41,370 bases of DNA. Origin: a virus. The stretch spans positions 1 to 41,370 of IMG/VR virus record IMGVR_UViG_3300045988_094016. The stretch is one strand, 5' to 3'. The translations under genes were made by a program, and so were the position numbers. The notes below the pieces were generated by a model. It saw only the letters and a program-made list of their open reading frames with translations. It ran no database searches and was not told where the DNA came from. Every line of letters begins with the position of its first letter. Position 1 is the first letter of the stretch. Below, piece by piece: positions 1 through 41,370 of the stretch.

Positions 1-55
1 AATAAGCTAGAAAAATTTTATCTAAATCAGAGTGCAAACTTTGACGAGCTAAAAA
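1..55. repeat. Terminal direct repeat: bases 1-55 are identical to 41316-41370 (circular-contig overlap or terminal redundancy)
   Basis: Exact 55-nt identity between the first and last bases of the window. Gene order continues across the junction. Confidence 0.9.
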
Positions 56-2645: not shown

Positions 2646-4994
2646 ATGGCAAATAACGAAGTGGCCACAGTGCCTAACTATACCGATATATTTTACACAG
2701 TACCACTTACAGCTCAAACGCTGGAGCGTAAGCCTGACGGCAAGAAAACAGACCCAGGTTTCCCTCAGAAAGGGTGGCTACAATACACCACAACTAGAAA
2801 TACCCAGAATACTCCGCTACTCTGCGCAATAGCCCGCCGCGACTTTATCGGCATAGATGTGGATAATACAGAGATGTTCGAGCAGCTGCTTACCATAGAT
2901 AGCTACTCGGCGGATTACATAGCTAAATCCGACCTTAAGGGTGGTCATATACTCTACGCATATAATGAGGAGGACGCGCAAGAACTAGCCCAGATACATA
3001 AATGGGCTAAGCGCGCGTCCATAGATATCCAGCTAGATAATGCGCTCATATACCTAGCTACGCCTGCGAACCACACTAAGACGCTATTAACTCCGCCGCT
3101 AACCGCGCTCCCTCAAAAGCGCATACCGCTAGGTGTTAAGGCCTTCATATATATGTGCGCGGCTAAGGCTCAACTACTCACCCAGAGCGAAACGACCACG
3201 CTAACAACAGCGAGCGACTACAATCCAGAAGTTATGGCGCATAGCACACTAGGTTATATCCTGAATATAAACAACCTCAAAACACTCTCCGACTCCGAGT
3301 TAGCTCAAGCCATAGATAAAATAATACCGCAGAAGCTGGAGTATCGCCACCCACGTGATGTCCCTAACGGAGATGGCACAGCGTGGATGACGTCCGTGCG
3401 GTTTAAATTAGCTCAAGACCCGTCGGTATCTAAAGAGCAGTTTCAGGACTTTATGCTCCTGCTTAACTCACTGTGGCAGAGCCCGATGCCTGAAGAGCGG
3501 GTTATCCACGACTGTAACTATGATATAAATAAGCGCATAAACCCGCTCACTAATAAACCGCTGTGGCAGTATAATCCAGACTGGGCGAAAGAGGGTTTTA
3601 TCTACGAGAATGAATACTCTGACATTATAGAGGTGTTTTTCGACCCTGTAAAGCAGCTGTTTATTCACCATAACCGCCAGACACAAGAGTATCACACTTA
3701 CGACAAGACCAGCGCGGTGATGAATACCGTCCTGACTGAAAGCAAACTAAGACTTAAGGTAACCACCGAGAAACTGCTTAAGAAAGTCCGCGTTATAACA
3801 ATAGTTCATACGCCTGAATACCCGGCCGGCCTGATACCGCAAGTTCAACGCGACCCGCTGTTCAACACATACCAGCCGAGCGAGGGCATAAGAATACTTC
3901 GTGGAGAGCTGGAGCCTACCAACCTGCGGCAGCCGGACACTATCTTAGCTCTGCTCCGTCACCTGATACCAGACGCCGACAACCGCGACCGCTTTTGTAG
4001 GTTCTTGGCGCGTAAGCACTCGACATACGACCACTCTGACCTCTACTTCGTGTTTGCGGGCGTTGGTGGTGCTGGTAAAAATATGTTCATAGATAACGTC
4101 CTGCCATATTTCTCCACCACAGAGCGCATATATAAAGTAAATGTCAGCTCACTAACTAATGGGTTTAATAAGTGGATGGGAGAGACCGACTACGTCATAA
4201 TAGATGAAGCCGGGGAGGGAGATACTAAAAACGAGCAGGCGAAGCTGGTGGCAGAGCTAAAGAAAATAACAGGCTCCCCTCTAGTTTCAATAACTAAGAA
4301 GGGTAAAGACACGACCGCACCACAGCGGCATTATATGACCCCGATACTGAATACTAATATGCAGACTAAGTTGATAACCGATATTGCGCAGAATGACCGC
4401 CGCTTAGTGTTATTTAAATGCCCTACTAAACTAGCTAAGGTATATCCTGACACTACAGCGTTTTACAACAATCTAATATCAGACTTACCACACTTTGCGG
4501 CTTATTTGCGCTCACTAAAGCCGTTATCAAACGAGGATTATAAAGATAACTCAAATTGGAAAAACGAGGATTATGCCGAGTATATAGAGGCGACGACCAC
4601 TCCACTAGATAAACTGCTCGAAGCAGCGGAGAATAAAGACCACACAAAACTACTTGAAGTGCTTACAGAGGACTGCGCCGTCCCTATGCAGGATATAGAT
4701 AGGTTGTTTGAGGTTTCGACCACCGACCAAGCGCGTGCAGTGTTCTACAATACCAGCGCGACTAAGGAGCTAGGGCTACCATCGCTGATTGAGCTGCTAG
4801 ATAGACACTTCTCGGCTATAGAGATAAAAAGCAAGATAGGTAAGTATAAACGCAGGGTAACGCACTATAAGAATAAAAAGCCATATAATGTGTATGTAAT
4901 AGAGTTTAGCAGGCCTTACTCTAAGCTTGATACGGTCGAAGCTATAGAACAGCCTGAAACAGAGCAAACAAACGATAACGAAATTAAGCTTTAG
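2646..4994 (+). CDS. Bifunctional primase-polymerase / SF3-type (D5/P4-alpha-like) replicative helicase
   Basis: 782 aa. The N-terminal FIGIDVDN is a DxD motif typical of primase-polymerases. A Walker A (GVGGAGKN) and Walker B (VIIDEAGEG) lie in the C-terminal half. The RBS is AGGTGG. Confidence 0.65.
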   Translation: MANNEVATVPNYTDIFYTVPLTAQTLERKPDGKKTDPGFPQKGWLQYTTTRNTQNTPLLCAIARRDFIGIDVDNTEMFEQLLTIDSYSADYIAKSDLKGGHILYAYNEEDAQELAQIHKWAKRASIDIQLDNALIYLATPANHTKTLLTPPLTALPQKRIPLGVKAFIYMCAAKAQLLTQSETTTLTTASDYNPEVMAHSTLGYILNINNLKTLSDSELAQAIDKIIPQKLEYRHPRDVPNGDGTAWMTSVRFKLAQDPSVSKEQFQDFMLLLNSLWQSPMPEERVIHDCNYDINKRINPLTNKPLWQYNPDWAKEGFIYENEYSDIIEVFFDPVKQLFIHHNRQTQEYHTYDKTSAVMNTVLTESKLRLKVTTEKLLKKVRVITIVHTPEYPAGLIPQVQRDPLFNTYQPSEGIRILRGELEPTNLRQPDTILALLRHLIPDADNRDRFCRFLARKHSTYDHSDLYFVFAGVGGAGKNMFIDNVLPYFSTTERIYKVNVSSLTNGFNKWMGETDYVIIDEAGEGDTKNEQAKLVAELKKITGSPLVSITKKGKDTTAPQRHYMTPILNTNMQTKLITDIAQNDRRLVLFKCPTKLAKVYPDTTAFYNNLISDLPHFAAYLRSLKPLSNEDYKDNSNWKNEDYAEYIEATTTPLDKLLEAAENKDHTKLLEVLTEDCAVPMQDIDRLFEVSTTDQARAVFYNTSATKELGLPSLIELLDRHFSAIEIKSKIGKYKRRVTHYKNKKPYNVYVIEFSRPYSKLDTVEAIEQPETEQTNDNEIKL

Positions 4995-5066: not shown

Positions 5067-6428
5067 ATGGACATTAAACATTTTCTATCCGACCCTAAAG
5101 AAAACGAGGCATTTATAACAGGCCCTGCAGGGAGCGGTAAAACTACAGCCCTAATCGAGGTGGTTAAACAGCTTAATGATATGGGCATAAAATATAGAGT
5201 GGTGGCATACACCCATAAAGCCAAAAATGTGCTAGTTTCTAAGCTACCAGAGGATACTGATATATCTACCCTACACTCGTGGCTTAAGAAACGCCCTAGC
5301 ATAAATGAAAAAGCTAAGAGCTTGAAAGCCTTAGTTACTACTCATCAGTTCGGGCAGCCGGTATATATCCAGCTCCTGATAGTTGATGAGTTTAGCTTCG
5401 TGGGAGAAAAGGATTATCACTCTATAGGTAAGCTCCAAGACCAGCTAGAGTTAAACTACTGGGAGCACCTAAACAATCACTGCAAAAATGCGTGCTCTAC
5501 GATACCTGCTAACCCGTATCGTAGCCCTGTAGATATACCAGACGATGAAGTGGTGCCTATCTGCGAGCACTGCGGTAAGCCCTACTCCAGAGTGTGCATA
5601 CCACCGATAAAAGTGCTGTATGTTGGCGATTTAAATCAGCTTAGCCCTGTATATGGGCCTTCAGCTGTATATCCACATCAGCCGTATTGGAGAAAATTAA
5701 CTACAGTCCACCGCACGCATAACTCGCTAACTAAACCGCTGGTACTACTTGTAGATATGATGGAGGGACGCAGAAAACAGGCATATTTAGAGCCTACAGA
5801 GGATTTTATCCGCAAAGTTGATATAGTTGAGCTATATAAACAAGACACCGACGAGGATAAAATTATGCTCGCCTACACCAATCAGCGTGTGCAGGAGATT
5901 AACGCACTTATACAAGGGCGAGCGCAGCCACAACCTGGCGATAGGTTATACGATAGCACACTAAAGCAGTTTATAGAAATTGAGGGCATACACGACACTT
6001 GGAAGTGGGATTGTAAAACTGTTAATGGGATTATAAACTACGATACTAAATATAACCCGCTAATGTTTCTTAATAAACTAGATTTTGTTAAGTTCTACCA
6101 GATAGATGAATACTTAGCTATCCCTGCGATTTTTGGTATGTTCGAGAATAAGAAAATCAGAGAGGATATAGGGCGAGAGCTAGTCGAGAAAAACAAAGCA
6201 GGCATTGACAGTAAAGCACAATATCGGCTTTATAAAACAATTAGCGATTATGTATCAATCTTAGATTTTGCGCACTGCGTAACGATACATAAGAGCCAGG
6301 GCAGCGAGTATAATCACGTTTATGTAGATAGTCAAGACTTAAGCCGATGTTTTGACCAAAACGAGCGTATGCGCTTATTATATGTAAGCATTAGCCGAGC
6401 CCGTGAGAAATGCTATTTATCAAATTAA
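5067..6428 (+). CDS. Dda/RecD-like SF1 DNA helicase
   Basis: Contains Walker A GPAGSGKTT, Walker B LLIVDEF and the SF1B motif TIHKSQGSEY. There is a Cys-rich insertion, CEHCGKP...C. Confidence 0.75.
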   Translation: MDIKHFLSDPKENEAFITGPAGSGKTTALIEVVKQLNDMGIKYRVVAYTHKAKNVLVSKLPEDTDISTLHSWLKKRPSINEKAKSLKALVTTHQFGQPVYIQLLIVDEFSFVGEKDYHSIGKLQDQLELNYWEHLNNHCKNACSTIPANPYRSPVDIPDDEVVPICEHCGKPYSRVCIPPIKVLYVGDLNQLSPVYGPSAVYPHQPYWRKLTTVHRTHNSLTKPLVLLVDMMEGRRKQAYLEPTEDFIRKVDIVELYKQDTDEDKIMLAYTNQRVQEINALIQGRAQPQPGDRLYDSTLKQFIEIEGIHDTWKWDCKTVNGIINYDTKYNPLMFLNKLDFVKFYQIDEYLAIPAIFGMFENKKIREDIGRELVEKNKAGIDSKAQYRLYKTISDYVSILDFAHCVTIHKSQGSEYNHVYVDSQDLSRCFDQNERMRLLYVSISRAREKCYLSN

Positions 6429-6672: not shown

Positions 6673-6708
6673 AATTACGTTTAATTAAGTAATTTTTAAG
6701 ATAGTTTG

Positions 6709-6717
6709 TGTTATAAT
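6709..6717 (+). promoter_or_regulatory. Promoter, extended -10 TGTTATAAT (first of a tandem pair)
   Basis: The context ttaagatagtttgtgTTATAAT is repeated about 90 bp downstream. Confidence 0.5.
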
Positions 6718-6799
6718 ACTATCATAAATAAAGAGAGATTAACTCTTTAGAATAAAAAATCTGAATTAAGTTTAATTAAGATAGATTTAAGCTAAAGTG

Positions 6800-6808
6800 T
6801 GTTATAAT
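6800..6808 (+). promoter_or_regulatory. Promoter, extended -10 TGTTATAAT (second of the tandem pair)
   Basis: TGnTATAAT lies 38 nt upstream of the ATG at 6846, with the RBS AAGGAG. Confidence 0.5.
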
Positions 6809-6845: not shown

Positions 6846-7406
6846 ATGAAAAAGTCTGAAATTTACGAAAAGGTGCAGGCTATATGCGCTGCTCACAATT
6901 TACCAGCAGATGTTGTGGCTCAACTAAACGAGCTACTAGAGCCTAAAAATGCAGGTCGTTCTTTTAACTGGGACGATATTGTTCGCAAAGATGAAAACGG
7001 TAACGTGGTAGAAATCCAATGCAGCCTTTCAGGCGTATGGCTACCAGCTGATAGCTTACACTTTTATGCCAGCCGAGACGGCAAAGGCGTTATGGGAACT
7101 GATGGTGTAATCCTACAAAAAGTTTCTAAACAGGGCGAAAATGCTCGCAAAGCTTACCAAAAAGCTTATAACGCCAGCAAAAACGCACTTATGGACGATG
7201 TGCTTAATGGCGTTATTAGCAATGAAGAGGCTAAAGCTAAACTAGCGGAGCTAAACGCTACCGGCCCAGACTACAGCGTGGTCCATCCTTTAACTGGAGA
7301 AACATCAAGCGATGAAGTTAAAGATGAAGCCGAAGCACCTAAAAAGGGTAAAAAGGGCAAGAAATCTGCTAAAGTAGAAGCTGACCAAGAGCCAAGTGCA
7401 TACTAA
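6846..7406 (+). CDS. Hypothetical protein with a Lys-rich tail, probably highly expressed, 186 aa
   Basis: Monocistronic unit with two promoters, a strong RBS and a terminator hairpin. The C-terminus carries KKGKKGKKSAK. Codon choice (gct/cgt/ggc) differs from neighbouring genes. Confidence 0.6.
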   Translation: MKKSEIYEKVQAICAAHNLPADVVAQLNELLEPKNAGRSFNWDDIVRKDENGNVVEIQCSLSGVWLPADSLHFYASRDGKGVMGTDGVILQKVSKQGENARKAYQKAYNASKNALMDDVLNGVISNEEAKAKLAELNATGPDYSVVHPLTGETSSDEVKDEAEAPKKGKKGKKSAKVEADQEPSAY

Positions 7407-7822
7407 GAAACGAGCCCACTAATGTGGGTTCTTTAAACCCTCCTGATAAAAATGTTTGAGCGTAGGGTTGCAGGAGGGCTTAAAGAGCTCACGCTCGTTT
7501 CGGCGGGTTTTCTCTCTCAATTCTTACCGCCGATAGAGTTAATCTATTAACTATCTAGTTAATCTTTAACTCCCTAGCATAAGCTAGGTAGCTGCAATCG
7601 AGTATTGTGGCTTCCTAGCCTATGTTGTGTGATATAGGTGAAGGGACATAGTTCCTCCTTTAAATAAGTTGTGCGGCCAGCTTAGTAGTTAGTAAAGACC
7701 CGCTATTAGTTATAAGTCCTCGTCAGGCATACGAACGCGCATAATGAACACGAACGGCCCGCCGCTAAAGTTTCCCAAACGGGTTTAACACAATGTAAAA
7801 CATTTCACGCAAGGAGCGTAAT
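7404..7822 (+). other. GC-elevated, highly structured 417-bp non-coding leader / candidate ncRNA upstream of the SSB gene
   Basis: No ORF. Nested and mutually exclusive helices are present: 7407-7415 pairs with 7493-7501, 7438-7445 with 7471-7478, and 7501-7506 with 7527-7532. Further hairpins and palindromes follow. Confidence 0.3.
7413..7434 (+). terminator. Hairpin terminator (weak U-tract)
   Basis: Stem agcccac/gtgggtt, loop taat, then cttt. Confidence 0.4.
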
Positions 7823-8437
7823 ATGACGAAAGTCAAAACACTGCTAGGCACACTTAAATACGTCTTTATCGACGGAGAGGGCAGAAACACAGCAATGCAA
7901 GGCGAGGAAGAGCGTTTCCGCTATGTGGTTAGTTATGTTGTCCCTAAAGACAGCGAAGCCCATAAACATCTTAAAAAGCTTATCGACGAGGAGTGGGAAG
8001 CTTATAAGAAGCAGTTTGGAATTAAAGGGCAGCCGAAAACCAATGGCATTAAAGAGGAGATGATGAAAGACCCGAAAGGGACCATCGACCCAGAAACCGA
8101 GGACGTTAAGCGCATACCTACAGGTAATATCATAGCTACATTTAGCACAAACACTAAATGGCCTGACGGAAAAGACCAGGTTATTAAAGTGTATGATAGA
8201 AAGGGCGTAAACATTACCGAAGCAGTCCACGCAGCAGAGTGGAAAATTGGTAACGATAGCCAAGGTATTGTGTTCGGTTCAGCCCACGCAAATAACATCG
8301 GCGGCTCGCATAAGGTATCGTTGTATCTAACAGGCCTACAGATAGCTAAGTTAGTTAAATACGAGGGTAACGAGTGTGATGCGGAGGAGATTGAGGGCGA
8401 GGATATCGACGTCGGCGACGCTGCACCTGCACTCTAG
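7823..8437 (+). CDS. T7 gp2.5-like single-stranded DNA-binding protein
   Basis: Blockwise similarity to T7 gp2.5: LLGTLKYVFI...GEEE...YVVSYVVP versus ALGTAEPYAYI...NEE...YKVDLTIP. The C-terminal tail EEIEGEDIDVGDAAPAL is acidic. The RBS is AAGGAG. Confidence 0.6.
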   Translation: MTKVKTLLGTLKYVFIDGEGRNTAMQGEEERFRYVVSYVVPKDSEAHKHLKKLIDEEWEAYKKQFGIKGQPKTNGIKEEMMKDPKGTIDPETEDVKRIPTGNIIATFSTNTKWPDGKDQVIKVYDRKGVNITEAVHAAEWKIGNDSQGIVFGSAHANNIGGSHKVSLYLTGLQIAKLVKYEGNECDAEEIEGEDIDVGDAAPAL

Positions 8438-8443
8438 TAGTTT

Positions 8444-8471
8444 GGGAGCTATTTTGGCTCCCTTTTATTTT
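8444..8471 (+). terminator. Rho-independent terminator
   Basis: Stem gggagc/gctccc followed by TTTTATTTT. Confidence 0.65.
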
Positions 8472-8514
8472 AGTTAATTTATTAACTTCAATTTAACTTA
8501 ATAAGGAGCTGAAA

Positions 8515-9200: not shown

Positions 9201-10916
9201 ATGGTAGAAGTTAAATACAGAATACCTAAATCATTATCTGGGTTTAGTTTTAATCCTAGCGAGCTAGTATTTGCCGATATAGAAACCGAGAAGTTATATA
9301 TTGGCACTCGCTTGGTTCAACTATATCAACCTGGGCAGAACGATGACGAGGTTATAATACTAGATACTGATATAATCCAAGAAGCTGATATAAAAGCGTA
9401 TATCAAGCCTATGTGGACGGTATGGTTTAATGCTAGTTATGACTTCGGGACTTTGAATATGACCACCGATAAGTTCGATGATATTTTCTACCTAGCTAGG
9501 TTAGGCTTCCCGTTTTTCAAGGAGTATAACCTAGATAAAGTTATAGAAAATCTCGGCTTTGCTGGGTTATATGACGGCTTGGATAAAAAGAAACTACAGA
9601 AAGCAGGGTTTGTTAAGGGAGCTTATTTATCGGCTGCCCAACTAAAATACTCAGCCACCGACGTTGTGGCCCTTAGTTTATTGTGGCAAAATGAAACTAT
9701 CCAGAAGTGGAGAAACTCCATAGCTTACCAGGTCGATATTTTAAGCCTTAAGTATGCCGTAGTTTATCAGCAGAACGGCATTATGGTAGATTTACCGCTA
9801 AGGGCTAAGTATGAGAAAGAGGTGGACGAGGATATAGTCCGCTTAACTAAGGAGCTGCCTGAAGGGTTTAACGTCAATAGCCCTAAACAAGTTAAGGCAT
9901 ATCTAGGCACTGAAAGCAGCGACTACGACACGCTAGTTAATTATAGCGTAAGCAATAAACCCTTAGCAGAAAAAGCGCACACGATAATTTATATGCGTAA
10001 AGCGTTAAAAGAAAAAGGGTATTTACAATCTATAAATCACCAGTATATGCAGACACGATTTAACGTGGCTGGAGCTATTACTGGGAGATTTACTTCAAGC
10101 GGTGGAGATTTACCTAACGGGTTTAACTCTCAACAAATACCGCGACGGTTACAGCCGCTATTCAAGCCTGAAACAGAGGACACTGTAGTTGTAGGTCTTG
10201 ACTACTCTACCCTTGAGCTAAGAATTGCAGCTAGCGTGTTTGCAGAGCCTGTTATGTATCAAGAGTTACTTAACGGTGAGGACTTACATACAAATATGGC
10301 TGCACTAGCTACAGGTAAGAAAGTGCACCCTGATGGCCCGTTAGGGGATGATTATGATGCACTATTTACGGGTGATAGAACAAAAGGAGAATACGTAACT
10401 AAAAAGGATAGAACACTAGCTAAAGCTCTCAATTTCGGTTATATTTACGGAATGAGCGCAAAGACTTATCAAAACTATAGCTTAACGCGATATGCGCTTA
10501 AAATCTCGCTAGATGAAGCGACAAAGCTGCGGAATTTATATTTCGGTAAGTATAAAGCGATTAAAAAATATCACGATGAAGTTTGGAAAAATGTGGGTAA
10601 AGCAAACTACATTTATACCACTGCGCTAGGTCGTAGGGTTCACCCAAAGATAGGCACAGACGCTATCAACGGGCCAATTCAAGGTTCTGGTAGTGAAACG
10701 ACCAAACTAGCTGTGCATTATCTTTGCAAAGAATACCCAGAAGCGTTGAAGTTGATTTTTAATGTGGTCCACGACGCTATTTATCTAAGAGTGCCTAGAG
10801 CTGATAAAGATTTATGGCACGAGCGCGTAAGTAAAGCTATGGTTAAGGGTTGGGAGGAAATCTGCAAAACTTCGATATTCAAGTTTAAAGATATCCCAAT
10901 GCCTGTAGGTGATTGA
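9201..10916 (+). CDS. Family A DNA polymerase (Pol I-like)
   Basis: Exonuclease-like FADIETE at the N-terminus. Motif A is LDYSTLELRIAA, motif B is KALNFGYIYGMS and motif C is VHDAIY. Confidence 0.85.
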   Translation: MVEVKYRIPKSLSGFSFNPSELVFADIETEKLYIGTRLVQLYQPGQNDDEVIILDTDIIQEADIKAYIKPMWTVWFNASYDFGTLNMTTDKFDDIFYLARLGFPFFKEYNLDKVIENLGFAGLYDGLDKKKLQKAGFVKGAYLSAAQLKYSATDVVALSLLWQNETIQKWRNSIAYQVDILSLKYAVVYQQNGIMVDLPLRAKYEKEVDEDIVRLTKELPEGFNVNSPKQVKAYLGTESSDYDTLVNYSVSNKPLAEKAHTIIYMRKALKEKGYLQSINHQYMQTRFNVAGAITGRFTSSGGDLPNGFNSQQIPRRLQPLFKPETEDTVVVGLDYSTLELRIAASVFAEPVMYQELLNGEDLHTNMAALATGKKVHPDGPLGDDYDALFTGDRTKGEYVTKKDRTLAKALNFGYIYGMSAKTYQNYSLTRYALKISLDEATKLRNLYFGKYKAIKKYHDEVWKNVGKANYIYTTALGRRVHPKIGTDAINGPIQGSGSETTKLAVHYLCKEYPEALKLIFNVVHDAIYLRVPRADKDLWHERVSKAMVKGWEEICKTSIFKFKDIPMPVGD

Positions 10917-11057: not shown

Positions 11058-12020
11058 ATGGAATTTGATGACGGTGAGTTGGTCGATATTGACCTAACCC
11101 AGAACGGCGATGTAGCCGCACCGAAAAACGGTAAGATAGCGTTGATTGACGCTGATACCGTAGTTTTTGGGAGCGTAACTAAGCACCAAGAGGTTATAGA
11201 ACTACTACCCAGGGCTATGTATTCAGACGAGGAGTGGGCAACTATTAGCTCGATGAAAACATACGACCCTGAAGCTGGGACCATAGCCATATGCAATATG
11301 GATAATGCGTACCAATCAACTTTAGATAAGCTTCAAGGCATACTTGACGCTACAGGTTGCGTCGATTGGGAACTTCATTTCACTATTGGTCGTGGCAGCT
11401 TTAGATACACCAAGATTGACCCTATGTATAAAGCTAATAGGCTTGAGATGAAAAGCCCTGATGGGTTAAATGAGTTGAAGGTCAGAATGACTGAAGCGTT
11501 CCCGACTAAGGCATTTATCCACTATGATTTCGAGGCTGATGACGCGGTCATAGCCAAGAAAAAAGCACAACCAGATAAATATTTACTCTGCGCTGTGGAT
11601 AAAGATGTCTTATATACACTGCCGGGTAAGCACTTTAACTACTACAGCAGGGCAGAAACAGTAACAAAAGCAGGTAATCACCTCGATGAAATTAAAATGA
11701 AGTTTTTCGATGTAGAGCCTGAGCAGGCTATGAAGCACCACTTTAAGCAGTGCTTAACCGGGGACACTGGCGACAACGTTATCGGTTTAGCTAAAGTAGG
11801 CCCTAAAACAGCAGATAAAATCTTAGCTGGGGCTAGTTCGGCTGCTGAGTGTTGGGAGAGGGTGGTCAATGAATACGAAGCTAGAGGGCGTGATGTGTTT
11901 GACGCGGTTAAAAATATGAGGTTGGTCAGTATGCACCAGATTAGCTATGACCCTGAAAACGATAGCTATAGTTTAAATCTATGGCGTCCAGAAATTAACA
12001 AAGGAGAAAACGATGAGTAA
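11058..12020 (+). CDS. 5'-3' exonuclease / flap endonuclease (T7 gp6 / Pol I N-terminal-like)
   Basis: PIN-like ALIDADTVVF. The H3TH motif is TGDTGDNVIGLAKVGPKTA. The RBS is AAGGAG. Confidence 0.8.
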   Translation: MEFDDGELVDIDLTQNGDVAAPKNGKIALIDADTVVFGSVTKHQEVIELLPRAMYSDEEWATISSMKTYDPEAGTIAICNMDNAYQSTLDKLQGILDATGCVDWELHFTIGRGSFRYTKIDPMYKANRLEMKSPDGLNELKVRMTEAFPTKAFIHYDFEADDAVIAKKKAQPDKYLLCAVDKDVLYTLPGKHFNYYSRAETVTKAGNHLDEIKMKFFDVEPEQAMKHHFKQCLTGDTGDNVIGLAKVGPKTADKILAGASSAAECWERVVNEYEARGRDVFDAVKNMRLVSMHQISYDPENDSYSLNLWRPEINKGENDE

Positions 12021-12444
12021 TGTAAATGAAACTTTAAAACAACGTGGTGCCGTTTATGGAGATTATAAAGGTGGTTCGGAGTTTAGAGCTAATGTTATGA
12101 AACTAATTAAGGATAGGCACCAAGCAGTTAATGGTAAATTGTTGGACGCTTTGCATATGGTCTATATTTACGATATAGTTAATAAGCTATCTAGGTTAGC
12201 TACAACTCCAGACCACATAGATACTTGGCACGATATTGCTGGGTATGCTATGTTAGTAGAGGAAGCCCTTAAAAAGCAAGAAACTAAGAAGGAGTGCAAT
12301 ACCAAAGAAGCTGATGACGAAGCCGCCGTTATAGAGTTTATTAATTTAATGGAGGCTTTAACAGGTAAGGATAGCGAGATAACTAAAATGTCTAAAGAAG
12401 CTTACGATGACTATAAAAAGGCGAAAGAAAATGGGACGCGTTAA
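12013..12444 (+). CDS. Hypothetical protein, 143 aa; first gene of the nucleotide-metabolism block
   Basis: Strong RBS. Overlaps the neighbouring genes by a few bases. No confident domain call. Confidence 0.5.
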   Translation: MSNVNETLKQRGAVYGDYKGGSEFRANVMKLIKDRHQAVNGKLLDALHMVYIYDIVNKLSRLATTPDHIDTWHDIAGYAMLVEEALKKQETKKECNTKEADDEAAVIEFINLMEALTGKDSEITKMSKEAYDDYKKAKENGTR

Positions 12445-13321
12445 AACTAAATTCGGTAAGAAGCCTGCAACGGCTTATGTAAATCAAATAACTAACTTGA
12501 CGGTCGATTTAGTATCGGCCCCAAGCTGGAAGGAGCTTTGTAGTTATTTACCAGAATTTACTACGGCTACTTGGAGGGACGAAGCAGAAGCGGGTAAGAT
12601 AGATAACAGAGAGGAGATAGTTAAAGCTATATTTAGAGGCGAGATGTTACCCACAGCCTTAGAAACTATAAGGGTTACATTTCTTATTGACGGCTTAGAC
12701 TTAATCGACGTCACCCATTTGATAAGGCATAGAACCCTTAGCTTTAGCGCACAATGCACAGCTGACAGGGATATGCGTAAAGATAATTGTATGGTTAAAC
12801 CTAGCATTTTGGTAAATGACGAGTTTTTTGATAGGTATAAGAAAATAGTTGATGACGCCAAGAAATTATACGCTGATATGGTAGATAGTAAAGAGGTATC
12901 TATTTTTGACGCCAGAACTATTTTACCGAGAAGTTTAAGTAATTTCTATTATGTTAGCGGCAGCTTAAAGGATATAATCGCGTTTATAAAAACCCGCAAG
13001 GACGAGGCGATACAGCCTGAAAGCGATAATATCATAGCTATTCTTATGTGGTTGAAATTGGTTAAGCAATATCCAGCATTGCAGGAGTGCATAGATATGG
13101 ATATAGGTGGGCGAGATGAATTCTTTTGTAAAACAGCCTTGAGTGGGCATAATTCCCTAGCTTATTTACCTAAGCCAGAAAACGAAGTTCCGGGATTAAA
13201 GCCAGAGGACTGCATTTACCAAAAACGCAGGGCTGATTTTCCGGGAGGTAATTATTACGAAAACCGTAAAAGAAATATTCTACAAGTGTTAAAAGGGATA
13301 AAAGATGGCAACAATATTTGA
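12431..13321 (+). CDS. thyX: Flavin-dependent thymidylate synthase ThyX-like, with N- and C-terminal extensions
   Basis: The ThyX signature RHRtlSfSaQ is present, but the conserved Ser of RHR-X7-S is Cys here. The ATG at 12431 has an RBS. The track starts at 12407. Confidence 0.75.
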   Translation: MGRVKTKFGKKPATAYVNQITNLTVDLVSAPSWKELCSYLPEFTTATWRDEAEAGKIDNREEIVKAIFRGEMLPTALETIRVTFLIDGLDLIDVTHLIRHRTLSFSAQCTADRDMRKDNCMVKPSILVNDEFFDRYKKIVDDAKKLYADMVDSKEVSIFDARTILPRSLSNFYYVSGSLKDIIAFIKTRKDEAIQPESDNIIAILMWLKLVKQYPALQECIDMDIGGRDEFFCKTALSGHNSLAYLPKPENEVPGLKPEDCIYQKRRADFPGGNYYENRKRNILQVLKGIKDGNNI

Positions 13322-13727
13322 TTTAGGTGTTTATATAGCAGGTGGTTGGTTTTCTCCAGAACAGGAGAAAGCCTTAGATGAACTAGAGGGCTACGTTAAA
13401 GAGCATTTTGAACTATATTTTAGCCCTAGAGAGCATAATAACGCTAAATGTCAAGATTTAGAGGATATATTCCAAAGAAATATCCAAGCCTTAGATGAAG
13501 CGGAGATTATCATAGCCTCAACTATAGGTAAAGATATGGGCACTCTTTGGGAGTGCGGCTACGCTTATGCTAGAGAGCTTCAAGTTATTTATTACGCTCC
13601 TGGTATAGATAAAGTTAATCTAATGTTGGCTAAGAGCGGCAGAGTGGCTAGAAACCTAAAAGAGCTGGAGCAGATTTTGATAGATGTGGCTAATGTAGGC
13701 TATGTAGCAGATAAGGATATAGAATGA
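13305..13727 (+). CDS. Nucleoside 2-deoxyribosyltransferase / DNPH1(Rcl)-like
   Basis: Contains YIAGGWFSPEQ and the catalytic-Glu motif DMGTLWECGYA of this family. Confidence 0.7.
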   Translation: MATIFDLGVYIAGGWFSPEQEKALDELEGYVKEHFELYFSPREHNNAKCQDLEDIFQRNIQALDEAEIIIASTIGKDMGTLWECGYAYARELQVIYYAPGIDKVNLMLAKSGRVARNLKELEQILIDVANVGYVADKDIE

Positions 13728-14266
13728 TTGAGTTGGACGAACTATCACAAGCTGAAATTGAGGGAATATCAATCCCTCGCAAAGTTTATAACCTGAAGTT
13801 TATTCAGCGTTACTCGATAACGCCTAGAATAATTAACGAAACAGTGGCAGAGCATAGTTTCTTTGTGGCTACCTATGTTATGGAGTTGTATAAGTATTAT
13901 AAGTTTGATTTAAATAAAGCTGTGCAAATGGCTATAATCCACGACTTCGCCGAGAGCTATATAGGTGATGTAACCTTGAGCACTAAAACAATGTGCCCAG
14001 ACTTAGTTAAGGCTGTAGCAGATGCGGAATCTGATGTTATGTTTCAGAACTTCCCTAGTTTTATTTACGAGCTTTACAGGGAATACGAACGGCGCGTTAG
14101 TGTGGAGAGTTTGATAGTCAAGTTGGCAGATACGATGCAGGTCAAACAATACGCCAGTAATGAAATATCACTAGGTAATAATTCGCTTACGATGTCTAAT
14201 ATCCTTAGCCGTGCGGTCGATGATATAGATTTATTTGAGCGCAAACTCGCAGTTTATAAACGCTAA
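13724..14266 (+). CDS. HD-domain 5'-deoxynucleotidase (YfbR-like)
   Basis: Motifs VAEHSF...IIHDFAESYIGD match the YfbR-type HD motifs. Confidence 0.7.
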   Translation: MIELDELSQAEIEGISIPRKVYNLKFIQRYSITPRIINETVAEHSFFVATYVMELYKYYKFDLNKAVQMAIIHDFAESYIGDVTLSTKTMCPDLVKAVADAESDVMFQNFPSFIYELYREYERRVSVESLIVKLADTMQVKQYASNEISLGNNSLTMSNILSRAVDDIDLFERKLAVYKR

Positions 14267-14405
14267 AATTAGCGCATTGCGTGAGCGTAGAGCGATTTAA
14301 ATTTTTAGCTTGATTAATTCATCGAGTTAAGATTAAAATCGCTTTAGCGCGCAATGCTATTAAGAAAACTTTAATATTAAATTAAGTTAAAGTTAAGTAA
14401 GATTA

Positions 14406-14414
14406 TGTTATAAT
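14406..14414 (+). promoter_or_regulatory. Promoter, extended -10 TGTTATAAT
   Basis: Upstream of the HTH gene and downstream of an imperfect hairpin of about 90 nt at 14274-14357. Confidence 0.5.
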
Positions 14415-14464
14415 AAACGTAATTAAAGATAAAAATTTAATTAAAAACAATTCAAAGGAGCGCA

Positions 14465-14713
14465 ATGGATAAAGTTATAACTATCCAAAGTTACATCGAA
14501 AACCTTGAGAACCAGGGTATGACAGGTGTAGAAATCTCTAAACATTTGAGGGTATCAGCCTCTATGATTTCTACTTATAAATCAAATAGGTATAATATTA
14601 GCCTTAAACAAGCTAAGTTAATCTATAAACTTTATGGAGTAACTATACACCCGTATAGTGAAGCTAGTTTAAAAGCCGAACTAAATCTTGACAGGGAGAA
14701 CGAAAATGCCTAA
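14465..14713 (+). CDS. Small HTH DNA-binding regulator (XRE-like), 82 aa
   Basis: Helix-turn-helix GVEISKHLRVSASMISTYKS. The RBS is AAGGAG. Confidence 0.6.
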   Translation: MDKVITIQSYIENLENQGMTGVEISKHLRVSASMISTYKSNRYNISLKQAKLIYKLYGVTIHPYSEASLKAELNLDRENENA

Positions 14714-15269
14714 TTTAAACGAATTGCAAATTAAAATAGAACAGTGGTCAGAGGAAAGAGGTATCTTAGCTAATTCTAAAGCAGTTACCCAATGCCTTAA
14801 ACTTATGAGCGAAATGGGAGAACTAGCTGATAACCTAGCTAAGGGTAAAGACTGCCGAGATGATATTGGTGATTGCTTCGTGGTGCTAGTTAATATAGCT
14901 AGATTGGTGGGTTCTAATATAGCCGAGTGCGCAGAGATAGCCTATAACGATATTAAAGACCGAAAAGGGTTTCTGAACGAAGCTGGGACTTTTATTAAAT
15001 CAACTGACGCAAACTATGAGCGGCTATACCAAGAGTTTTTACAGCGCAATGAAGTGCCTAAAATGAAAAAAGAACTTAATGAAATGGAGCAGGCTACACT
15101 AGATGAAATAGTTAATGCTCCAAAAGATTTAAAGGTGGATAATTTCACGGCTTCTTTACCTACTTTATCTAAGAACCCGACAGACGCAGAGATTATATCG
15201 GCTTGGGAAGCTAAGGGGTATAGAGCACATAAGCGCAAAGATGGCTGGTTCTTCAGTAGGATTCATTAA
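14706..15269 (+). CDS. MazG-like nucleoside triphosphate pyrophosphohydrolase with a ~90-aa C-terminal extension
   Basis: The MazG core is EMGELADNLAKGK...DDIGDCFVVLVNIA. The ATG at 14706 has the RBS GGGAGA. The track ORF starts at TTG 14688. Confidence 0.7.
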   Translation: MPNLNELQIKIEQWSEERGILANSKAVTQCLKLMSEMGELADNLAKGKDCRDDIGDCFVVLVNIARLVGSNIAECAEIAYNDIKDRKGFLNEAGTFIKSTDANYERLYQEFLQRNEVPKMKKELNEMEQATLDEIVNAPKDLKVDNFTASLPTLSKNPTDAEIISAWEAKGYRAHKRKDGWFFSRIH

Positions 15270-40191: not shown

Positions 40192-40213
40192 GGATACTCC
40201 TTATGGTTTTTCT

Positions 40214-40224
40214 GTAAGTATAGC
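40214..40224 (-). promoter_or_regulatory. Late-promoter candidate motif GCTATACTTAC (minus strand), copy 2
   Basis: Its 3' end lies 22 nt upstream of the TerS GTG. Confidence 0.4.
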
Positions 40225-40604
40225 TAAGTTTAACTTAAGCTTTGCTTACGTGAGCTAATGATAACTATAGTTTGCAGGCCGTAGTCGATATTCTATTAAG
40301 TTTAATTAAAATTGTGTTGCAATTAAAGTTAATTGAATAATAATTTCGTGAAAATTTTTTTATTATTTTGGTGGTATAAGTTACACGCTGTTATATTGGA
40401 GTGTGGCGTCGTGAAAATGGGTTATATTTCGTTGAATTAGGTTATTATTCCATTGAATTAGATTTAATTAAATATTAATTCCGAAATGGAGTTGCGGATT
40501 TTGGAGTGTTCTGTCGTCGAAAACTCTCGCATCACTTTGTCGCACCCACTCCAAATTCCCAAAGGCCTCAAAATAATCTCGATATTTTCACGCAATCTCG
40601 CAAA

Positions 40605-40656
40605 GTTTCACGTGAAACGCTAATTGATAACGATTATTATATTTAATTTAATTTAA
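40605..40656. repeat. Direct repeat unit 1: palindrome GTTTCACGTGAAAC plus TTGATAA(C/T)GATTATTATATT
   Basis: Nearly identical to 40696-40748. A third partial copy lies at 40749-40774. Confidence 0.7.
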
Positions 40657-40695
40657 CGTCTAGCTTGAAATGCAGTCTGCCACATCGCATTTTAA

Positions 40696-40748
40696 GTTTC
40701 ACGTGAAACGCTTATTGATAATGATTATTATATTCTATTTAATTTAAG
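40696..40748. repeat. Direct repeat unit 2
   Basis: See unit 1. The palindromes are 91 bp apart. Confidence 0.7.
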
Positions 40749-40931
40749 CATTGATAATGATTATTATAATCTACGTCATTATCATAACAACTGCTATTTG
40801 ATAATGTTGCAATTTAAGCGTTTCTTAAGCAAAATTATGCTATTCGCGTAACATATAATATAAGTAATTTTTAGAGCTAGAAAAATATTTTTACAAACGT
40901 TATTTAATTCAGTTTAATTTAAGCAAATTGA

Positions 40932-40940
40932 TGATATAAT
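40932..40940 (+). promoter_or_regulatory. Early promoter, extended -10 TGATATAAT (duplicate of the element at 437-472)
   Basis: aattcagtttaatttaagcaaattgatgatataat, compared with 437-472. Confidence 0.55.
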
Positions 40941-40974
40941 TCTTTCATAAATCAAAAGAAAGAGAGATAATAAA

Positions 40975-41280: not shown

Positions 41281-41370
41281 ATTCAGTTTAATTTAAGAGA
41301 TTAGAAATTGAGCTCAATAAGCTAGAAAAATTTTATCTAAATCAGAGTGCAAACTTTGACGAGCTAAAAA

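What the first reader, a model, noticed from the sequence alone, without database searches (positions are those of the whole stretch)
7404..7822. GC-elevated, highly structured 417-bp leader upstream of the SSB-like gene
No ORF is present. GC content is clearly higher than in the flanking sequence. Several stable and partly mutually exclusive helices can be drawn. Helix 7407-7415 with 7493-7501 competes with the terminator hairpin at 7413-7430. Further helices pair 7438-7445 with 7471-7478 and 7501-7506 with 7527-7532, and the hairpin cctagc-ataa-gctagg lies at 7573-7588. There are also the overlapping palindromes GTTAATCTATTAAC and TTAACTATCTAGTTAA and a triplicated AGTTAATC. The region could be a termination/antitermination switch, an ncRNA, or a translational operator for the downstream gp2.5-like SSB, by analogy with autoregulation of T4 gene 32 through its leader.
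Basis: partly seen in the sequence, partly recalled or inferred. Interest (0 to 1): 0.55.

Follow-up and report, generated by a model that had tools for sequence, protein, structure and literature searches.

The report
Structured untranslated leader before phage SSB gene
The 416-base gap is a real, conserved, non-coding chain of stem-loops that most likely forms the untranslated RNA between two co-transcribed replication genes and tunes production of the phage's single-stranded-DNA-binding protein; it is a new example of a familiar kind of mRNA leader, not a new kind of element.

Summary
The gap 7407-7822 is real: it has no ORF under any stop-codon recoding, folds far better than shuffles (z about -5 on both strands), and is kept in all 15 distinct clade relatives found. 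Its GC (44%) equals that of the flanking genes but is the highest of the genome's 13 non-coding gaps. No promoter of this phage's type lies between 7112 and 8721, so SSB is probably the second cistron of an ORF186-gap-SSB message.

Comparison with about 30 divergent relatives splits the gap into three parts.
- 7407-7501: a small GC hairpin fused to a 22-position helix. This is the local form of a long hairpin found before SSB family-wide, and is probably an RNase III or stability signal.
- About 7501-7780: a clade-specific stack of hairpins under moderate constraint that evolves by hairpin-sized indels.
- 7765-7822: a family-conserved A-rich leader with the Shine-Dalgarno sequence in a hairpin loop. 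This is the most constrained part.

The AGTTAATC/TTAAC palindromes are a strain-variable indel. Covariation is modest and there is no Rfam match. A gene-32-like operator remains possible only for the last ~50 nt. Verdict: a cis-acting mRNA leader, a new variant of a known kind, of moderate interest.

The parts
6680..6717 (+). Promoter P1 of the ORF186-SSB unit (extended -10 TGTTATAAT at 6709-6717, upstream TTAAG/TTTAAT repeats)
   Evidence: Member of the genome's promoter repeat family D1/D2. Perfect TGNTATAAT.
6771..6808 (+). Promoter P2, in tandem with P1 (TGTTATAAT at 6800-6808)
   Evidence: No further site of this type on either strand until 8722.
6846..7406 (+). ORF186, the upstream cistron. 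Function unknown (phrog_10459). Has a basic-then-acidic C-terminal tail ending in Y.
   Evidence: Homologs found only inside this clade. Structure model too poor to use (pLDDT 51).
7407..7822 (+). The whole 416-nt untranslated gap, proposed as the intercistronic leader of the SSB mRNA
   Evidence: No ORF. z = -4.9. Kept in all clade relatives. 44% GC against 15-37% in the other gaps.
7412..7431 (+). First hairpin GAGCCCAC-TAAT-GTGGGTTC (8 bp). Terminator-like but with a poor U-tract. Its 3' arm is shared with the long hairpin.
   Evidence: Sequence. Called a terminator only on the minus strand. Invariant in the clade except L084. Counterparts in relatives often carry cUUCGg loops.
7407..7501 (+). 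5' module: long hairpin with arms 7424-7445/7471-7492 (22 positions: 19 Watson-Crick, 2 G-U, 1 A-C mismatch; 25-nt loop), extended by the outer helix 7407-7415/7493-7501
   Evidence: One compensatory G-C to C-G pair in the clade. A long hairpin before SSB is family-wide: median longest helix 20 bp against 14 bp in other gaps, p = 3e-5.
7501..7532 (+). Hairpin CGGCGG/CCGCCG with a pyrimidine-rich loop. TCTCAATTCTTACCGCC is invariant in the clade.
   Evidence: helix 4. The invariant 17-mer is found only in the same 9 IMG/VR contigs.
7536..7572 (.). Palindrome block (GTTAATCTATTAAC, TTAACTATCTAGTTAA, two AGTTAATC). A strain-variable indel, probably a DNA-level protein-binding site.
   Evidence: Absent from all group-2 relatives, and variant in L082. 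Centre TC is GA in L001 and L002. The related palindrome at 8473 tends to be present or absent together with it.
7573..7588 (+). Hairpin CCTAGC-ATAA-GCTAGG, invariant stem
   Evidence: helix 5: never varies, so uninformative for covariation.
7590..7612 (+). Hairpin AGCTGCAAT/ATTGTGGCT. One pair seen as U-A, C-G and U-G across the clade.
   Evidence: helix 6.
7618..7639 (+). Hairpin GCCTATGTT-GTGT-GATATAGGT, nearly invariant
   Evidence: helix 7. Part of the 20-mer found only in this clade.
7640..7674 (+). Variable hairpin region. The sequence is replaced between lineages but a hairpin is kept. Contains a CUCCU anti-SD-like run.
   Evidence: Helix 8 carries 4 of the 7 compensatory pairs. Alignment in this region is uncertain.
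7675..7763 (+). 3' domain of the clade-specific part (helices 9-11). Divergence 0.14 against 0.29-0.37 at four-fold sites. One hairpin (7683-7708) is deleted in L082.
7765..7822 (+). Family-conserved proximal leader. Contains GGTTTAACACAATGTAAAACA (7782-7802), the small hairpin 7792-7804, the motif GTAAAAC at 7795-7801, and the SD AAGGAG (7811-7816) in the loop of hairpin 7807-7819.
   Evidence: Significant similarity to relatives' leaders: best score reached by 4/200 shuffles, mean score by 0/200. Divergence 0.02-0.04. Motif enriched 9-fold family-wide. SD unpaired with p of about 0.85-1.0 regardless of leader length.
7823..8437 (+). gp2.5-like single-stranded-DNA-binding protein gene with an acidic C-terminal tail
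   Evidence: phrog_112, E = 1.1e-12. 117 homologs. Cultured relatives are annotated as SSB or DUF2815.
8444..8462 (+). Strong intrinsic terminator ending the ORF186-SSB unit (GGGAGC...GCTCCC followed by TTTTATTTT)
   Evidence: Conserved in relatives.

Best explanation
The gap is the untranslated RNA between two cistrons of one message. Host RNA polymerase starts at the tandem promoters near 6709 and 6800, reads through ORF186 and the gap into the SSB gene, and stops at the terminator at 8444-8462. This route is inferred from the positions of promoters and terminators.

The gap RNA folds into about ten stem-loops. The fold is shown by prediction, with modest covariation support. It has three parts.

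1. 7407-7501. A weak terminator-like hairpin is fused to a helix of about two turns. I infer that this marks the boundary between the two cistrons: it would be a double-stranded-RNA signal for RNase III cleavage and/or for end protection, letting the SSB half of the message have a different lifetime and yield from the ORF186 half. What is shown is that a long hairpin at this position is a family-wide feature whose sequence is not conserved.

2. About 7501-7780. This stack of hairpins occurs only in this clade. It is under moderate purifying selection and changes by whole-hairpin indels. I infer that it acts as a structured spacer that keeps a long untranslated stretch resistant to Rho and ribonucleases. 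Any more specific role is unknown.

3. 7765-7822. This is the translation-initiation leader shared with divergent relatives. It is A-rich and largely unstructured, carries a TAAAAC-type motif, and presents the Shine-Dalgarno sequence in a hairpin loop. It is the most constrained part. I infer that it drives high SSB translation. It is also the only place where feedback binding by SSB, as in T4 gene 32, would be plausible.
For: Non-coding and structured:
-.

Transcription route:
- The phage encodes no RNA polymerase or sigma factor.
- It has a clear TGnTATAAT promoter family in its AT-rich gaps.
- No such site, even with one mismatch, lies on either strand between 7112 and 8721. Perfect sites lie at 6709 and 6800.
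- A strong terminator follows SSB.
- Divergent relatives have no consistently placed sigma-70 promoter in their gaps.

Conservation and selection:
- The gap is present in all 15 distinct clade relatives recovered (13 in alignment A4 including the window, plus L008, L082 and L084).
- Divergence from group 2 is 0.20 (5' module), 0.25 (7501-7675), 0.14 (7676-7770) and 0.02-0.04 (7771-7822), against 0.29-0.37 at four-fold degenerate sites of the flanking genes.

Structure conservation:
- 97.9% of cells are paired.
- 7 pairs show compensatory double changes, against 2.9 in shuffles (2/500 shuffles reach 7) and 0-4 in slid controls.

Family-wide anatomy:
- Synteny is conserved, with a 100-336-nt gap before SSB in about 30 divergent loci.
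- Those gaps fold with z from -2.5 to -9.4, each dominated by one long hairpin.
- The median longest helix is 20 bp against 14 bp in other gaps of the same loci, p = 3e-5.
- The sense strand is the more stable in 26 of 31 gaps, p = 1.6e-4, and cUUCGg tetraloops are common in the first hairpin.

Proximal leader:
- It is similar across the family.
- The motif is enriched 9-fold.
- The SD is displayed in a hairpin loop.

Broader parallels:
- Cultured distant relatives (VPMS1, ETP-1) show a promoter, then a 5' hairpin, then an A/C-rich leader before SSB.
- An idealised RNase III substrate is about 22 bp (PMC3867540).
Against: - There are no transcript data of any kind. The operon structure is inferred only from consensus matches, and the host is unknown.
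- Inside the clade the consensus fold is equally good on the reverse strand. The single-sequence z-scores are also equal on both strands. A DNA-level or antisense role is therefore not excluded.
- Covariation rests on about four independent lineages, and the structure was derived from the same alignment it was tested on.
- RNase III cleavage is a guess from helix length alone.
- The predicted accessibility of the SD is the same with or without the long leader. Thermodynamic prediction therefore assigns the upstream 350 nt no effect on ribosome access to the SSB start.
- A covariance model of the relatives' two-hairpin core does not hit the window.
- 7501-7766 shows no significant similarity to relatives. 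The middle part therefore has no comparative anchor outside one narrow clade.
Confidence: 0.5

Rival explanations
1. DNA-level element of the replication module. The inverted repeats and palindromes would act in DNA as an origin, a primosome or helicase loading site, or a set of protein-binding sites next to the primase-polymerase, helicase, SSB and polymerase genes.
For: - The gap sits inside the replication module.
- Folding is strand-symmetric in the window and in the clade.
- The hairpin loop is exactly reverse-complemented in L005 and L007, and a palindrome centre is flipped from TC to GA. The repeats therefore behave as DNA inverted repeats.
- GTTAA..TTAAC palindromes flank the SSB gene.
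Against: - The gap is the most GC-rich non-coding stretch in the genome and has no AT-rich unwinding region.
- The direct repeats and palindromes are an indel missing from most relatives.
- Across the family the hairpins favour the sense RNA strand and carry cUUCGg loops.
- Constraint peaks at the ribosome-binding region.
- Better origin candidates exist: AT-rich regions rich in repeats at 40192-41370, 1-541 and 1016-2217, including 91-nt-spaced repeats.
Confidence: 0.15
2. The clade-specific middle part (about 7501-7780) is a stable non-coding RNA in its own right. It would be cut out of the bicistronic transcript and act in trans, for example on host or phage targets.
For: - It is 280 nt long, GC-rich and multi-hairpin.
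- It contains invariant blocks and is under purifying selection.
- It is flanked by a potential RNase III hairpin.
- It has no Rfam family.
- A 41-kb phage with otherwise tight packing devotes 1% of its genome to it.
Against: - It has no promoter or terminator of its own.
- It tolerates deletion of a whole hairpin and replacement of others, unlike compact functional RNAs.
- It is found only at this one locus in one narrow clade.
- Covariation is modest.
Confidence: 0.12
3. Termination/antitermination switch. The hairpin at 7412-7431 would stop transcription after ORF186 unless the competing long hairpin and outer helix form, so SSB expression would be gated at the level of read-through.
For: - The 3' arm GTGGGTTC of the first hairpin is also the base of the long hairpin.
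- The outer helix 7407-7415/7493-7501 uses the 5' arm. The structures are therefore mutually exclusive.
- SSB appears to depend on read-through.
Against: - The first hairpin is followed by TTTAAACC and is not called a + strand terminator.
- In divergent relatives the two hairpins are adjacent and do not overlap.
- No ligand- or protein-sensing element is recognisable.
- The outer helix is only partly maintained in group 2.
Confidence: 0.08
4. A largely functionless spacer: remnants of insertions or duplications, or a decayed gene, with only the ribosome-binding region under selection.
For: - The middle part is clade-specific, rich in indels, and includes a local 21-nt duplication.
- 7501-7675 diverges at 0.25, not far below the neutral proxy of 0.29-0.37.
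- Predicted RBS access does not depend on it.
Against: - Fold z is about -5.
- There are invariant 17-20-mers.
- Hairpins are retained through compensatory change.
- Divergence is only 0.14 in 7676-7770.
- There is no trace of coding potential by tblastx or by recoding.
- Every other spacer in this genome is short and AT-rich.
Confidence: 0.1

Closest known systems
Translational operator of T4 gene 32 (autoregulated SSB leader)
   Same: - It is a leader of a phage SSB gene.
- A structured element lies upstream of an unstructured A-rich tract with a short repeated motif that runs into the ribosome-binding site. T4 has a pseudoknot about 67 nt upstream followed by UUAA(A) repeats (PMC3014915). 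Here a small hairpin is followed by TAAAAC-type motifs that are 9-fold enriched family-wide.
   Different: - The SSB is gp2.5-like, unrelated to gp32.
- No pseudoknot was found.
- The window carries only one copy of the motif, and its SD sits in a small hairpin loop.
- The leader is 416 nt and most of it is GC-rich helices.
- SSB binding to its own mRNA is untested, and to my knowledge has not been reported for gp2.5-type proteins.
RNase III processing signals in the phage T7 polycistronic early transcript
   Same: - It is an intercistronic hairpin of about two helical turns with an internal mismatch, in a phage polycistronic message made by host RNA polymerase.
- The helix rather than the sequence is conserved. 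An idealised substrate is 22 bp, and T7 has five such signals (PMC3867540).
   Different: - Cleavage is untested and the host is unknown.
- Only this junction carries such a GC-containing hairpin in the window genome.
- The loops are large (12-25 nt here, up to about 60 nt in relatives).
5' stem-loop mRNA stabilisers and intercistronic stability hairpins (for example the ompA 5' UTR, and puf or pap operon hairpins; cited from general knowledge)
   Same: - Stable hairpins sit at or near the 5' end of a highly expressed cistron, with differential expression within an operon.
- The cultured relatives VPMS1 and ETP-1 show a promoter, then a 5' hairpin, then an A/C-rich leader before SSB.
   Different: - Here there is no promoter in the gap, so a 5' hairpin would exist only after processing.
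- The leader is several times longer than known stabilisers.
Rfam families (4227 models)
   Same: Nothing specific. The best matches are a generic long hairpin (mir-5429, 32 bits against a 80-bit gathering score) and CRISPR-DR44 (17.9 bits against 35, E = 6.1) on the palindrome block.
   Different: No family reaches its threshold in the window or in a permissive scan of 7300-7950.

Membership tests
T4 gene 32-type autoregulatory SSB operator | Lies in the 5' leader of the SSB's own gene | tested here: met
   The gap directly precedes the gp2.5-like SSB gene.
T4 gene 32-type autoregulatory SSB operator | Pseudoknot (a structured nucleation site) about 60-70 nt upstream of the start codon | tested here: inconclusive
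   Small hairpins exist at 7792-7804 and near 7780. Pseudoknots were not searched for and none is evident. The relatives' GC hairpin motif does not match the window.
T4 gene 32-type autoregulatory SSB operator | Unstructured A/U-rich tract with short repeats overlapping the ribosome-binding site | tested here: inconclusive
   Family-wide, the segment from -45 to -16 is 46% A and 13% G, and the BTARAAC motif occurs at 11.7 per kb against 1.2 per kb. The window has one copy (7795-7801). The same motif occurs upstream of 4 other window genes.
T4 gene 32-type autoregulatory SSB operator | The SSB binds its own mRNA and represses its translation | not testable with these tools
   Needs binding and reporter assays.
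RNase III processing site (T7 type) | Double-stranded helix of about two turns (about 20-22 bp) | tested here: met
   Arms 7424-7445/7471-7492: 19 Watson-Crick pairs, 2 G-U and 1 mismatch. In the family, 16 of 27 gaps have a helix of 20 bp or more.
RNase III processing site (T7 type) | Lies within a polycistronic transcript | tested here: inconclusive
   Inferred from the absence of promoters between 7112 and 8721 and from the terminator at 8444. No transcript data are available.
RNase III processing site (T7 type) | Cleaved by the host RNase III | not testable with these tools
   The host is unknown. An in vitro or rnc-mutant assay is needed.
Intrinsic terminator / attenuator switch | GC-rich hairpin immediately followed by a U-tract | tested here: not met
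   The hairpin at 7412-7431 is followed by TTTAAACC. The scan lists it only for the minus strand.
Intrinsic terminator / attenuator switch | A conserved alternative (antiterminator) pairing | tested here: inconclusive
   The overlap with the long hairpin is present and invariant in the clade but absent in divergent relatives.
Replication origin (iterons plus an AT-rich unwinding element) | AT-rich unwinding region | tested here: not met
   44% GC, the highest of the 13 non-coding gaps.
Replication origin (iterons plus an AT-rich unwinding element) | Conserved repeated binding sites | tested here: not met
   The AGTTAATC repeats and palindromes are missing from group-2 relatives.
Any Rfam RNA family | Score at or above the family's gathering threshold | tested here: not met
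   0 matches at gathering thresholds. The best sub-threshold hits are 32.2/80 and 17.9/35 bits.
Family-wide pre-SSB leader of this phage group (defined here) | Long hairpin after the upstream ORF, plus an A-rich proximal leader similar in sequence to those of relatives | tested here: met
   Long hairpin. 7765-7810 is similar to relatives' leaders (4/200 and 0/200 shuffles).
Family-wide pre-SSB leader of this phage group (defined here) | Two-hairpin core (TAAG..CTTA hairpin, AACACGA box, CCTC-GGTGCNCA-GAGG hairpin), as modelled by R1 | tested here: not met
   R1 finds its own subfamily (E = 1e-10 to 1e-14), L050 and L061 weakly, and nothing in the window gap. 7711-7766 is not similar to relatives.

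The most novel reading that the evidence does not exclude
gp2.5-type SSBs of this phage family feed back on their own translation by coating the A-rich TAAAAC leader next to a hairpin. This would be an independent reinvention of the T4 gene 32 circuit in an unrelated SSB family. In this human-associated clade, an added 280-nt multi-hairpin RNA domain with no Rfam counterpart would be a new cis-regulatory or processed RNA that sets the ORF186:SSB ratio.
Probability: 0.15. Interest if true: 0.6.

Novelty: new variant of a known kind. Interest (0 to 1): 0.38.

Why it matters
If the reading is right, this gives a defined, compact test case for how host-polymerase-dependent podophages raise the output of one abundantly needed replication protein within an operon. 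The proposed means are a double-stranded-RNA boundary, a structured spacer, and an A-rich leader with an exposed ribosome-binding site. It also yields a family-wide pre-SSB RNA architecture that could be added to RNA-family catalogues. Finally, it makes testable the question of whether gp2.5-type SSBs autoregulate as T4 gp32 does. It does not point to a new class of element.

Tried and rejected
- Rfam at gathering thresholds and at E up to 10: nothing credible.
- tRNA and tmRNA scan: none.
- blastn of the gap and its flanks against 50,697 phage records: no match.
- Pattern TGAACACGAACGGCNCGCCG picked up L026, a high-GC actinophage contig. This was a chance match and was discarded.
- Invariant 20-mer against 185k species genomes: no match.
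- SSB profile against the same genomes: one 2.6-kb contig in a Gracilibacteria MAG, too weak to name a host.
- Hidden ORF under TGA, TAG or TAA recoding: none.
- Decayed gene, tested by tblastx against all relatives: none.
- Similarity of the middle part to relatives or to the rest of the genome by blastn-short and nhmmer: none.
- Homology of 7711-7766 with the relatives' TAAG-hairpin/AACACGA/GC-hairpin core, which I first drew by eye. It was rejected after a covariance model and a shuffle test both failed.
- Strand assignment from clade-level alifold energies: inconclusive.
- Masking of the SD by the long leader: not predicted.
- Sigma-70-type promoters inside the gap, in the window and in relatives: none consistent.
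- ORF186 function: no Pfam family, only an unknown-function PHROG, and no PDB relative. The AlphaFold model had pLDDT 51, so no fold search was run.
- The contig break of IMGVR_UViG_7000000479_000052 inside the gap: it falls at a G/T homopolymer and is a single case, so no inference about genome ends was drawn.
Full report
CONTEXT

The window is a circularly assembled phage genome of about 41.3 kb. Positions 1-55 are identical to 41316-41370. GC content is 37.8%.

The + arm carries a replication module:
- primase-polymerase, 2646-4994
- Dda-like helicase, 5067-6428
- ORF186, 6846-7406 (unknown function, phrog_10459)
- gp2.5-like SSB, 7823-8437 (phrog_112, E = 1e-12)
- family A DNA polymerase, 9201-10916
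- 5'-3' exonuclease, 11058-12020

The minus arm carries the virion genes. No RNA polymerase or sigma factor was found.

The AT-rich intergenic gaps hold a clear family of extended -10 promoters (TGnTATAAT with upstream TTAAG/TTTAAT repeats).

CHECK OF THE OBSERVATION

The gap 7407-7822 is 416 nt.

No coding potential:
- Only ORFs of 33 aa or less fall within it, and none is conserved.
- No frame opens if any one stop codon is recoded. The phage's genes use all three stops.

Structure:
- The sequence folds to -134.3 kcal/mol against -106.4 +/- 5.7 for dinucleotide shuffles, z = -4.9.
- The reverse complement folds equally well, z = -5.2. The raw signal is therefore inverted-repeat content, not evidence for a particular strand.

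Corrections to the observation:
- 'GC higher than the flanks' is wrong. The gap is 44.0% GC, and the flanking genes are 43.7% and 46.2%. The gap does stand out among the genome's 13 non-coding gaps, which otherwise run from 15 to 37% GC, and it exceeds the coding mean of 38.9%.
- AGTTAATC occurs twice in the gap, not three times.
- The first hairpin is followed by TTTAAACC and is not called a + strand terminator.

WHAT IT IS NOT

- No Rfam family reaches its threshold. A permissive scan gives only a generic long-hairpin match (mir-5429, 32 of 80 bits) and a chance-level CRISPR-repeat match on the palindrome block (E = 6.1).
- There are no tRNA or tmRNA genes.
- tblastx against all relatives gives nothing, so it is not a decayed gene.
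- Invariant blocks of the gap occur only in the same nine IMG/VR contigs, always at this locus. They occur in none of 185k species genomes.

CLOSE RELATIVES

Using the SSB and ORF186 proteins as bait, I recovered clade members from three sources:
- nine IMG/VR contigs
- further metagenome contigs
- two more divergent members, L082 and L084

Together these give 15 distinct clade relatives. Thirteen sequences including the window are in alignment A4. L008, L082 and L084 are additional.

All of them carry the gap, at 386-419 nt.

Divergence between the window and 'group 2':

| Region | Divergence |
|---|---|
| Four-fold degenerate sites, flanking genes | 0.29-0.37 |
| 7407-7500 | about 0.20 |
| 7501-7675 | 0.25, plus indels |
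| 7676-7770 | 0.14 |
| 7771-7822 | 0.02-0.04 |

(All.) The gap is therefore under purifying selection that strengthens towards the SSB start codon.

On the 13-sequence alignment, RNAalifold keeps 13 helices. The pair counts are:
- 97.9% of cells are paired.
- 7 pairs carry compensatory double changes, against a mean of 2.9 in column shuffles (2 of 500 shuffles reach 7) and 0-4 in slid controls.
- Many one-sided changes are G-C/G-U or U-A/U-G.

This is real but modest support. Only about four lineages are independent, and the structure was derived from the same alignment. Consensus folding of the reverse complement is about as good, so the clade data do not fix the strand.

Three details argue against a compact, tertiary-folded RNA in the middle of the gap:
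- The palindrome/AGTTAATC block (7536-7572) is an indel. It is absent from all group-2 phages and different in L082.
- L082 lacks 21 nt that make up one whole predicted hairpin (7683-7708). That stretch looks like one copy of a local duplication.
- The region 7640-7674 is replaced by unrelated sequence that still forms a hairpin.

The repeats also behave as DNA inverted repeats:
- The loop of the long hairpin is TCATTGTGTTGT in most group-2 phages but its exact reverse complement in L005 and L007.
- The centre of one palindrome is TC in the window and GA in L001 and L002.

The related palindrome after the SSB terminator (8473) is intact mainly in the phages that also have the block in the gap. 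This suits a strain-variable protein-binding site in DNA.

DIVERGENT RELATIVES

SSB homologs at 39-69% identity lie on about 30 further phage contigs with the same gene order: helicase, an ORF of about 100-190 aa, a gap, SSB, polymerase, exonuclease.

Properties of their pre-SSB gaps:
- The gap is 100-336 nt long, with GC at or above the locus mean.
- It shares no detectable sequence with 7501-7766 of the window.
- Nearly all gaps fold significantly, with z from -2.5 to -9.4.
- The shared anatomy is a short GC hairpin right after the upstream stop, often with a cUUCGg loop. It is followed by one very long, near-perfect hairpin whose sequence differs between lineages, and then an A-rich leader.
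- The longest helix has a median of 20 bp before SSB against 14 bp in other gaps of the same loci (p = 3e-5). Several of the long 'other' cases are in fact pre-SSB gaps that escaped my filter.
- The sense strand folds more stably than the antisense strand in 26 of 31 gaps (p = 1.6e-4). This is the main evidence that these are RNA structures on the coding strand.
- The leader from -45 to -16 is 46% A and 13% G.
- The motif [CGT]TA[AG]AAC is 9-fold enriched (11.7 against 1.2 per kb).

The window compared with these relatives:
- 7765-7810 is significantly similar to the relatives' leaders. The best score is reached by 4 of 200 shuffles and the mean score by 0 of 200. The best match is GGTTTAACACAATGTAAAACA, 18 of 21 identical to L027.
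- I had also aligned 7711-7766 by eye to a two-hairpin core of one subfamily. That idea failed a covariance-model test and a shuffle test, and I withdraw it.

Cultured but distant relatives have unannotated gaps of 78-123 nt before SSB (SSB identity 29-38%: Edwardsiella phages KF-1 and ETP-1, Vibrio phage VPMS1, Pseudoalteromonas PH1, Dickeya Amaethon, Nitratiruptor NrS-1). In VPMS1 a textbook TTTACA-N17-TATAAT promoter is followed by a stable 5' hairpin and an A/C-rich leader. ETP-1 is similar.

TRANSCRIPTION LOGIC (INFERRED)

- No TGnTATAAT site, even with one mismatch, lies on either strand between 7112 and 8721.
- Perfect sites lie at 6709 and 6800, just upstream of ORF186.
- A strong terminator follows SSB at 8444-8462.
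- Divergent relatives have no consistently placed sigma-70 promoter in their gaps either.

The simplest reading is a bicistronic ORF186-gap-SSB message.

MECHANISM PROPOSED

(a) 7407-7501.
- The first hairpin (7412-7431) shares its 3' arm with a helix of 22 positions (7424-7445/7471-7492: 19 Watson-Crick, 2 G-U, 1 A-C). A 9-bp outer helix extends it.
- Two helical turns is the size of an idealised RNase III substrate, and T7's early polycistronic RNA is punctuated by such signals (PMC3867540).
- What is conserved is the helix, not the sequence or even the loop orientation. That fits a double-stranded-RNA signal for processing and/or end protection that uncouples the two cistrons.
- Cleavage itself is not shown.

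(b) About 7501-7780.
- This is a clade-specific stack of hairpins, moderately constrained, evolving by modular indels.
- It is probably a structured spacer that protects a long untranslated stretch. No more specific role can be assigned.

(c) 7765-7822.
- This is the family-conserved translation-initiation leader.
- In partition-function folding, the SD (AAGGAG, 7811-7816) sits in the loop of hairpin 7807-7819 and stays unpaired (p of about 0.85-1.0) whether 50 or 420 nt of leader are included. This holds in the window and in L003.
- The upstream structure is therefore not predicted to mask the ribosome-binding site. Any translational control would need a trans-acting factor.
- The T4 gene 32 operator is a pseudoknot about 67 nt upstream followed by an unstructured A+U-rich tract with UUAA(A) repeats overlapping the RBS (PMC3014915). 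The family's hairpin plus TAAAAC-rich tract resembles this in layout only. The window has a single motif copy, and the same motif occurs upstream of four other window genes.

RIVALS

- A DNA-level origin or binding region has some support: its position in the replication module, strand symmetry, and the flipped loops. Against it are the high GC, the non-conserved repeats, the family-wide sense-strand bias, and better candidates in the AT-rich, repeat-dense regions at 40192-41370, 1-541 and 1016-2217.
- A free-standing ncRNA lacks its own promoter and terminator, and tolerates loss of whole hairpins.
- A terminator/antiterminator switch lacks a U-tract, and the hairpin overlap is not conserved across the family.
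- A functionless spacer is contradicted by the selection and structure data.

COMPARISON AND NOVELTY

The element works like known structured mRNA leaders: phage RNase III punctuation, 5' and intercistronic stabilisers, and possibly an SSB operator. It belongs to no described RNA family.

It is best called a new variant of a known kind. It is unusually long, GC-rich and modular, and sits before a gp2.5-type SSB gene in a clade of uncultured, apparently human-associated phages (several source contigs carry Human Microbiome Project identifiers).

Interest is moderate: a good candidate for a new cis-regulatory RNA entry and a testable autoregulation question, but nothing that challenges current categories.

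LIMITS

- There are no transcript data, and the host is unknown.
- Few independent lineages are available.
- ORF186 could not be characterised. Homologs occur only in the clade, there is no PDB or Pfam relative, and the AlphaFold model had pLDDT 51.

Noticed in passing
window 7446-7470 equivalent; L005:1690-2084 and L007:2764-3158: The loop of the long hairpin is TCATTGTGTTGT in most group-2 relatives but the exact reverse complement, ACAACACAATGA, in L005 and L007, with the arms unchanged. Likewise the palindrome centre TC (window 7554-7555) is GA in L001 and L002. These are small DNA inversions between inverted-repeat arms, most likely from template switching or recombination.
   Followed up: partly
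window 12407-15269: A cluster of nucleotide-metabolism genes: thymidylate-synthase-like, nucleoside deoxyribosyltransferase, dATP-triphosphohydrolase-like and MazG pyrophosphatase. Relatives also carry dGTP_diPhyd_N (PF18909). This suggests the phage DNA may contain a modified base.
   Followed up: no
window 40603-40780 (also 1-541, 1016-2217): Large AT-rich non-coding regions lie between the two gene arms. They contain 91-nt-spaced direct repeats (AAGTTTCACGTGAAACGCT.ATTGATAA.GATTATTATAT), many promoters and long AT-rich inverted repeats (for example 343-389, 1589-1685). They are better candidates for the origin or early control region than the gap studied here.
   Followed up: no
window 1-55 and 41316-41370: The two ends are identical over 55 nt. 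The window is therefore a circularised assembly of a genome of about 41,315 bp, and the repeat is probably an assembly overlap.
   Followed up: no
window 8473-8486 and 14617-14630: The GTTAAT-NN-ATTAAC palindrome recurs just after the SSB terminator and inside ORF 14465-14713. The site at 8473 is degraded in most phages that lack the palindrome block in the gap. It may be the operator of an unidentified DNA-binding protein.
   Followed up: partly
L047:466-520, L051:2413-2466, L052:1489-1542, L053:2397-2449, L054:2425-2476, L049:2407-2460, L029:2913-2966: One subfamily of divergent relatives shares a pre-SSB two-hairpin core of about 55 nt. It consists of an AG..CT-clamped hairpin, an AACACGA box, and a CCTC-GGTGCNCA-GAGG hairpin. 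Both stems covary (for example AGCTT/AAGCT with AGTCT/AGGCT, and CCTC/GAGG with CCGC/GCGG). It is a candidate conserved RNA motif (model R1) and is not found in the window.
   Followed up: partly
L056:1712-1862, L066:1644-1849, L060:1706-1804: Some relatives also carry hairpins of 16-27 bp at the junction between the helicase and the ORF186 homolog. Long hairpins may therefore punctuate more than one boundary of the replication operon.
   Followed up: no
L081 (JAOZLT010000331.1): The only bacterial-genome hit for the SSB family is a 2.6-kb contig binned into a Candidatus Gracilibacteria MAG (43% identity). This is weak host evidence. The window phage itself reads correctly with the standard code.
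   Followed up: partly
L008:1 / L012:4651 (IMGVR_UViG_7000000479_000052): This 41,989-bp contig starts and ends inside the gap, at the G4/T5 run just after the 5' hairpin module. It is a single case and is probably an assembly break point rather than a genome end.
   Followed up: yes
window 6846-7406: ORF186 ends in a lysine-rich stretch followed by an acidic tail with a terminal aromatic residue (...KKGKKGKKSAKVEADQEPSAY). This recalls the C-terminal tails of T7 gp2.5 and gp4 that contact the polymerase. Homologs were found only within this clade.
   Followed up: partly
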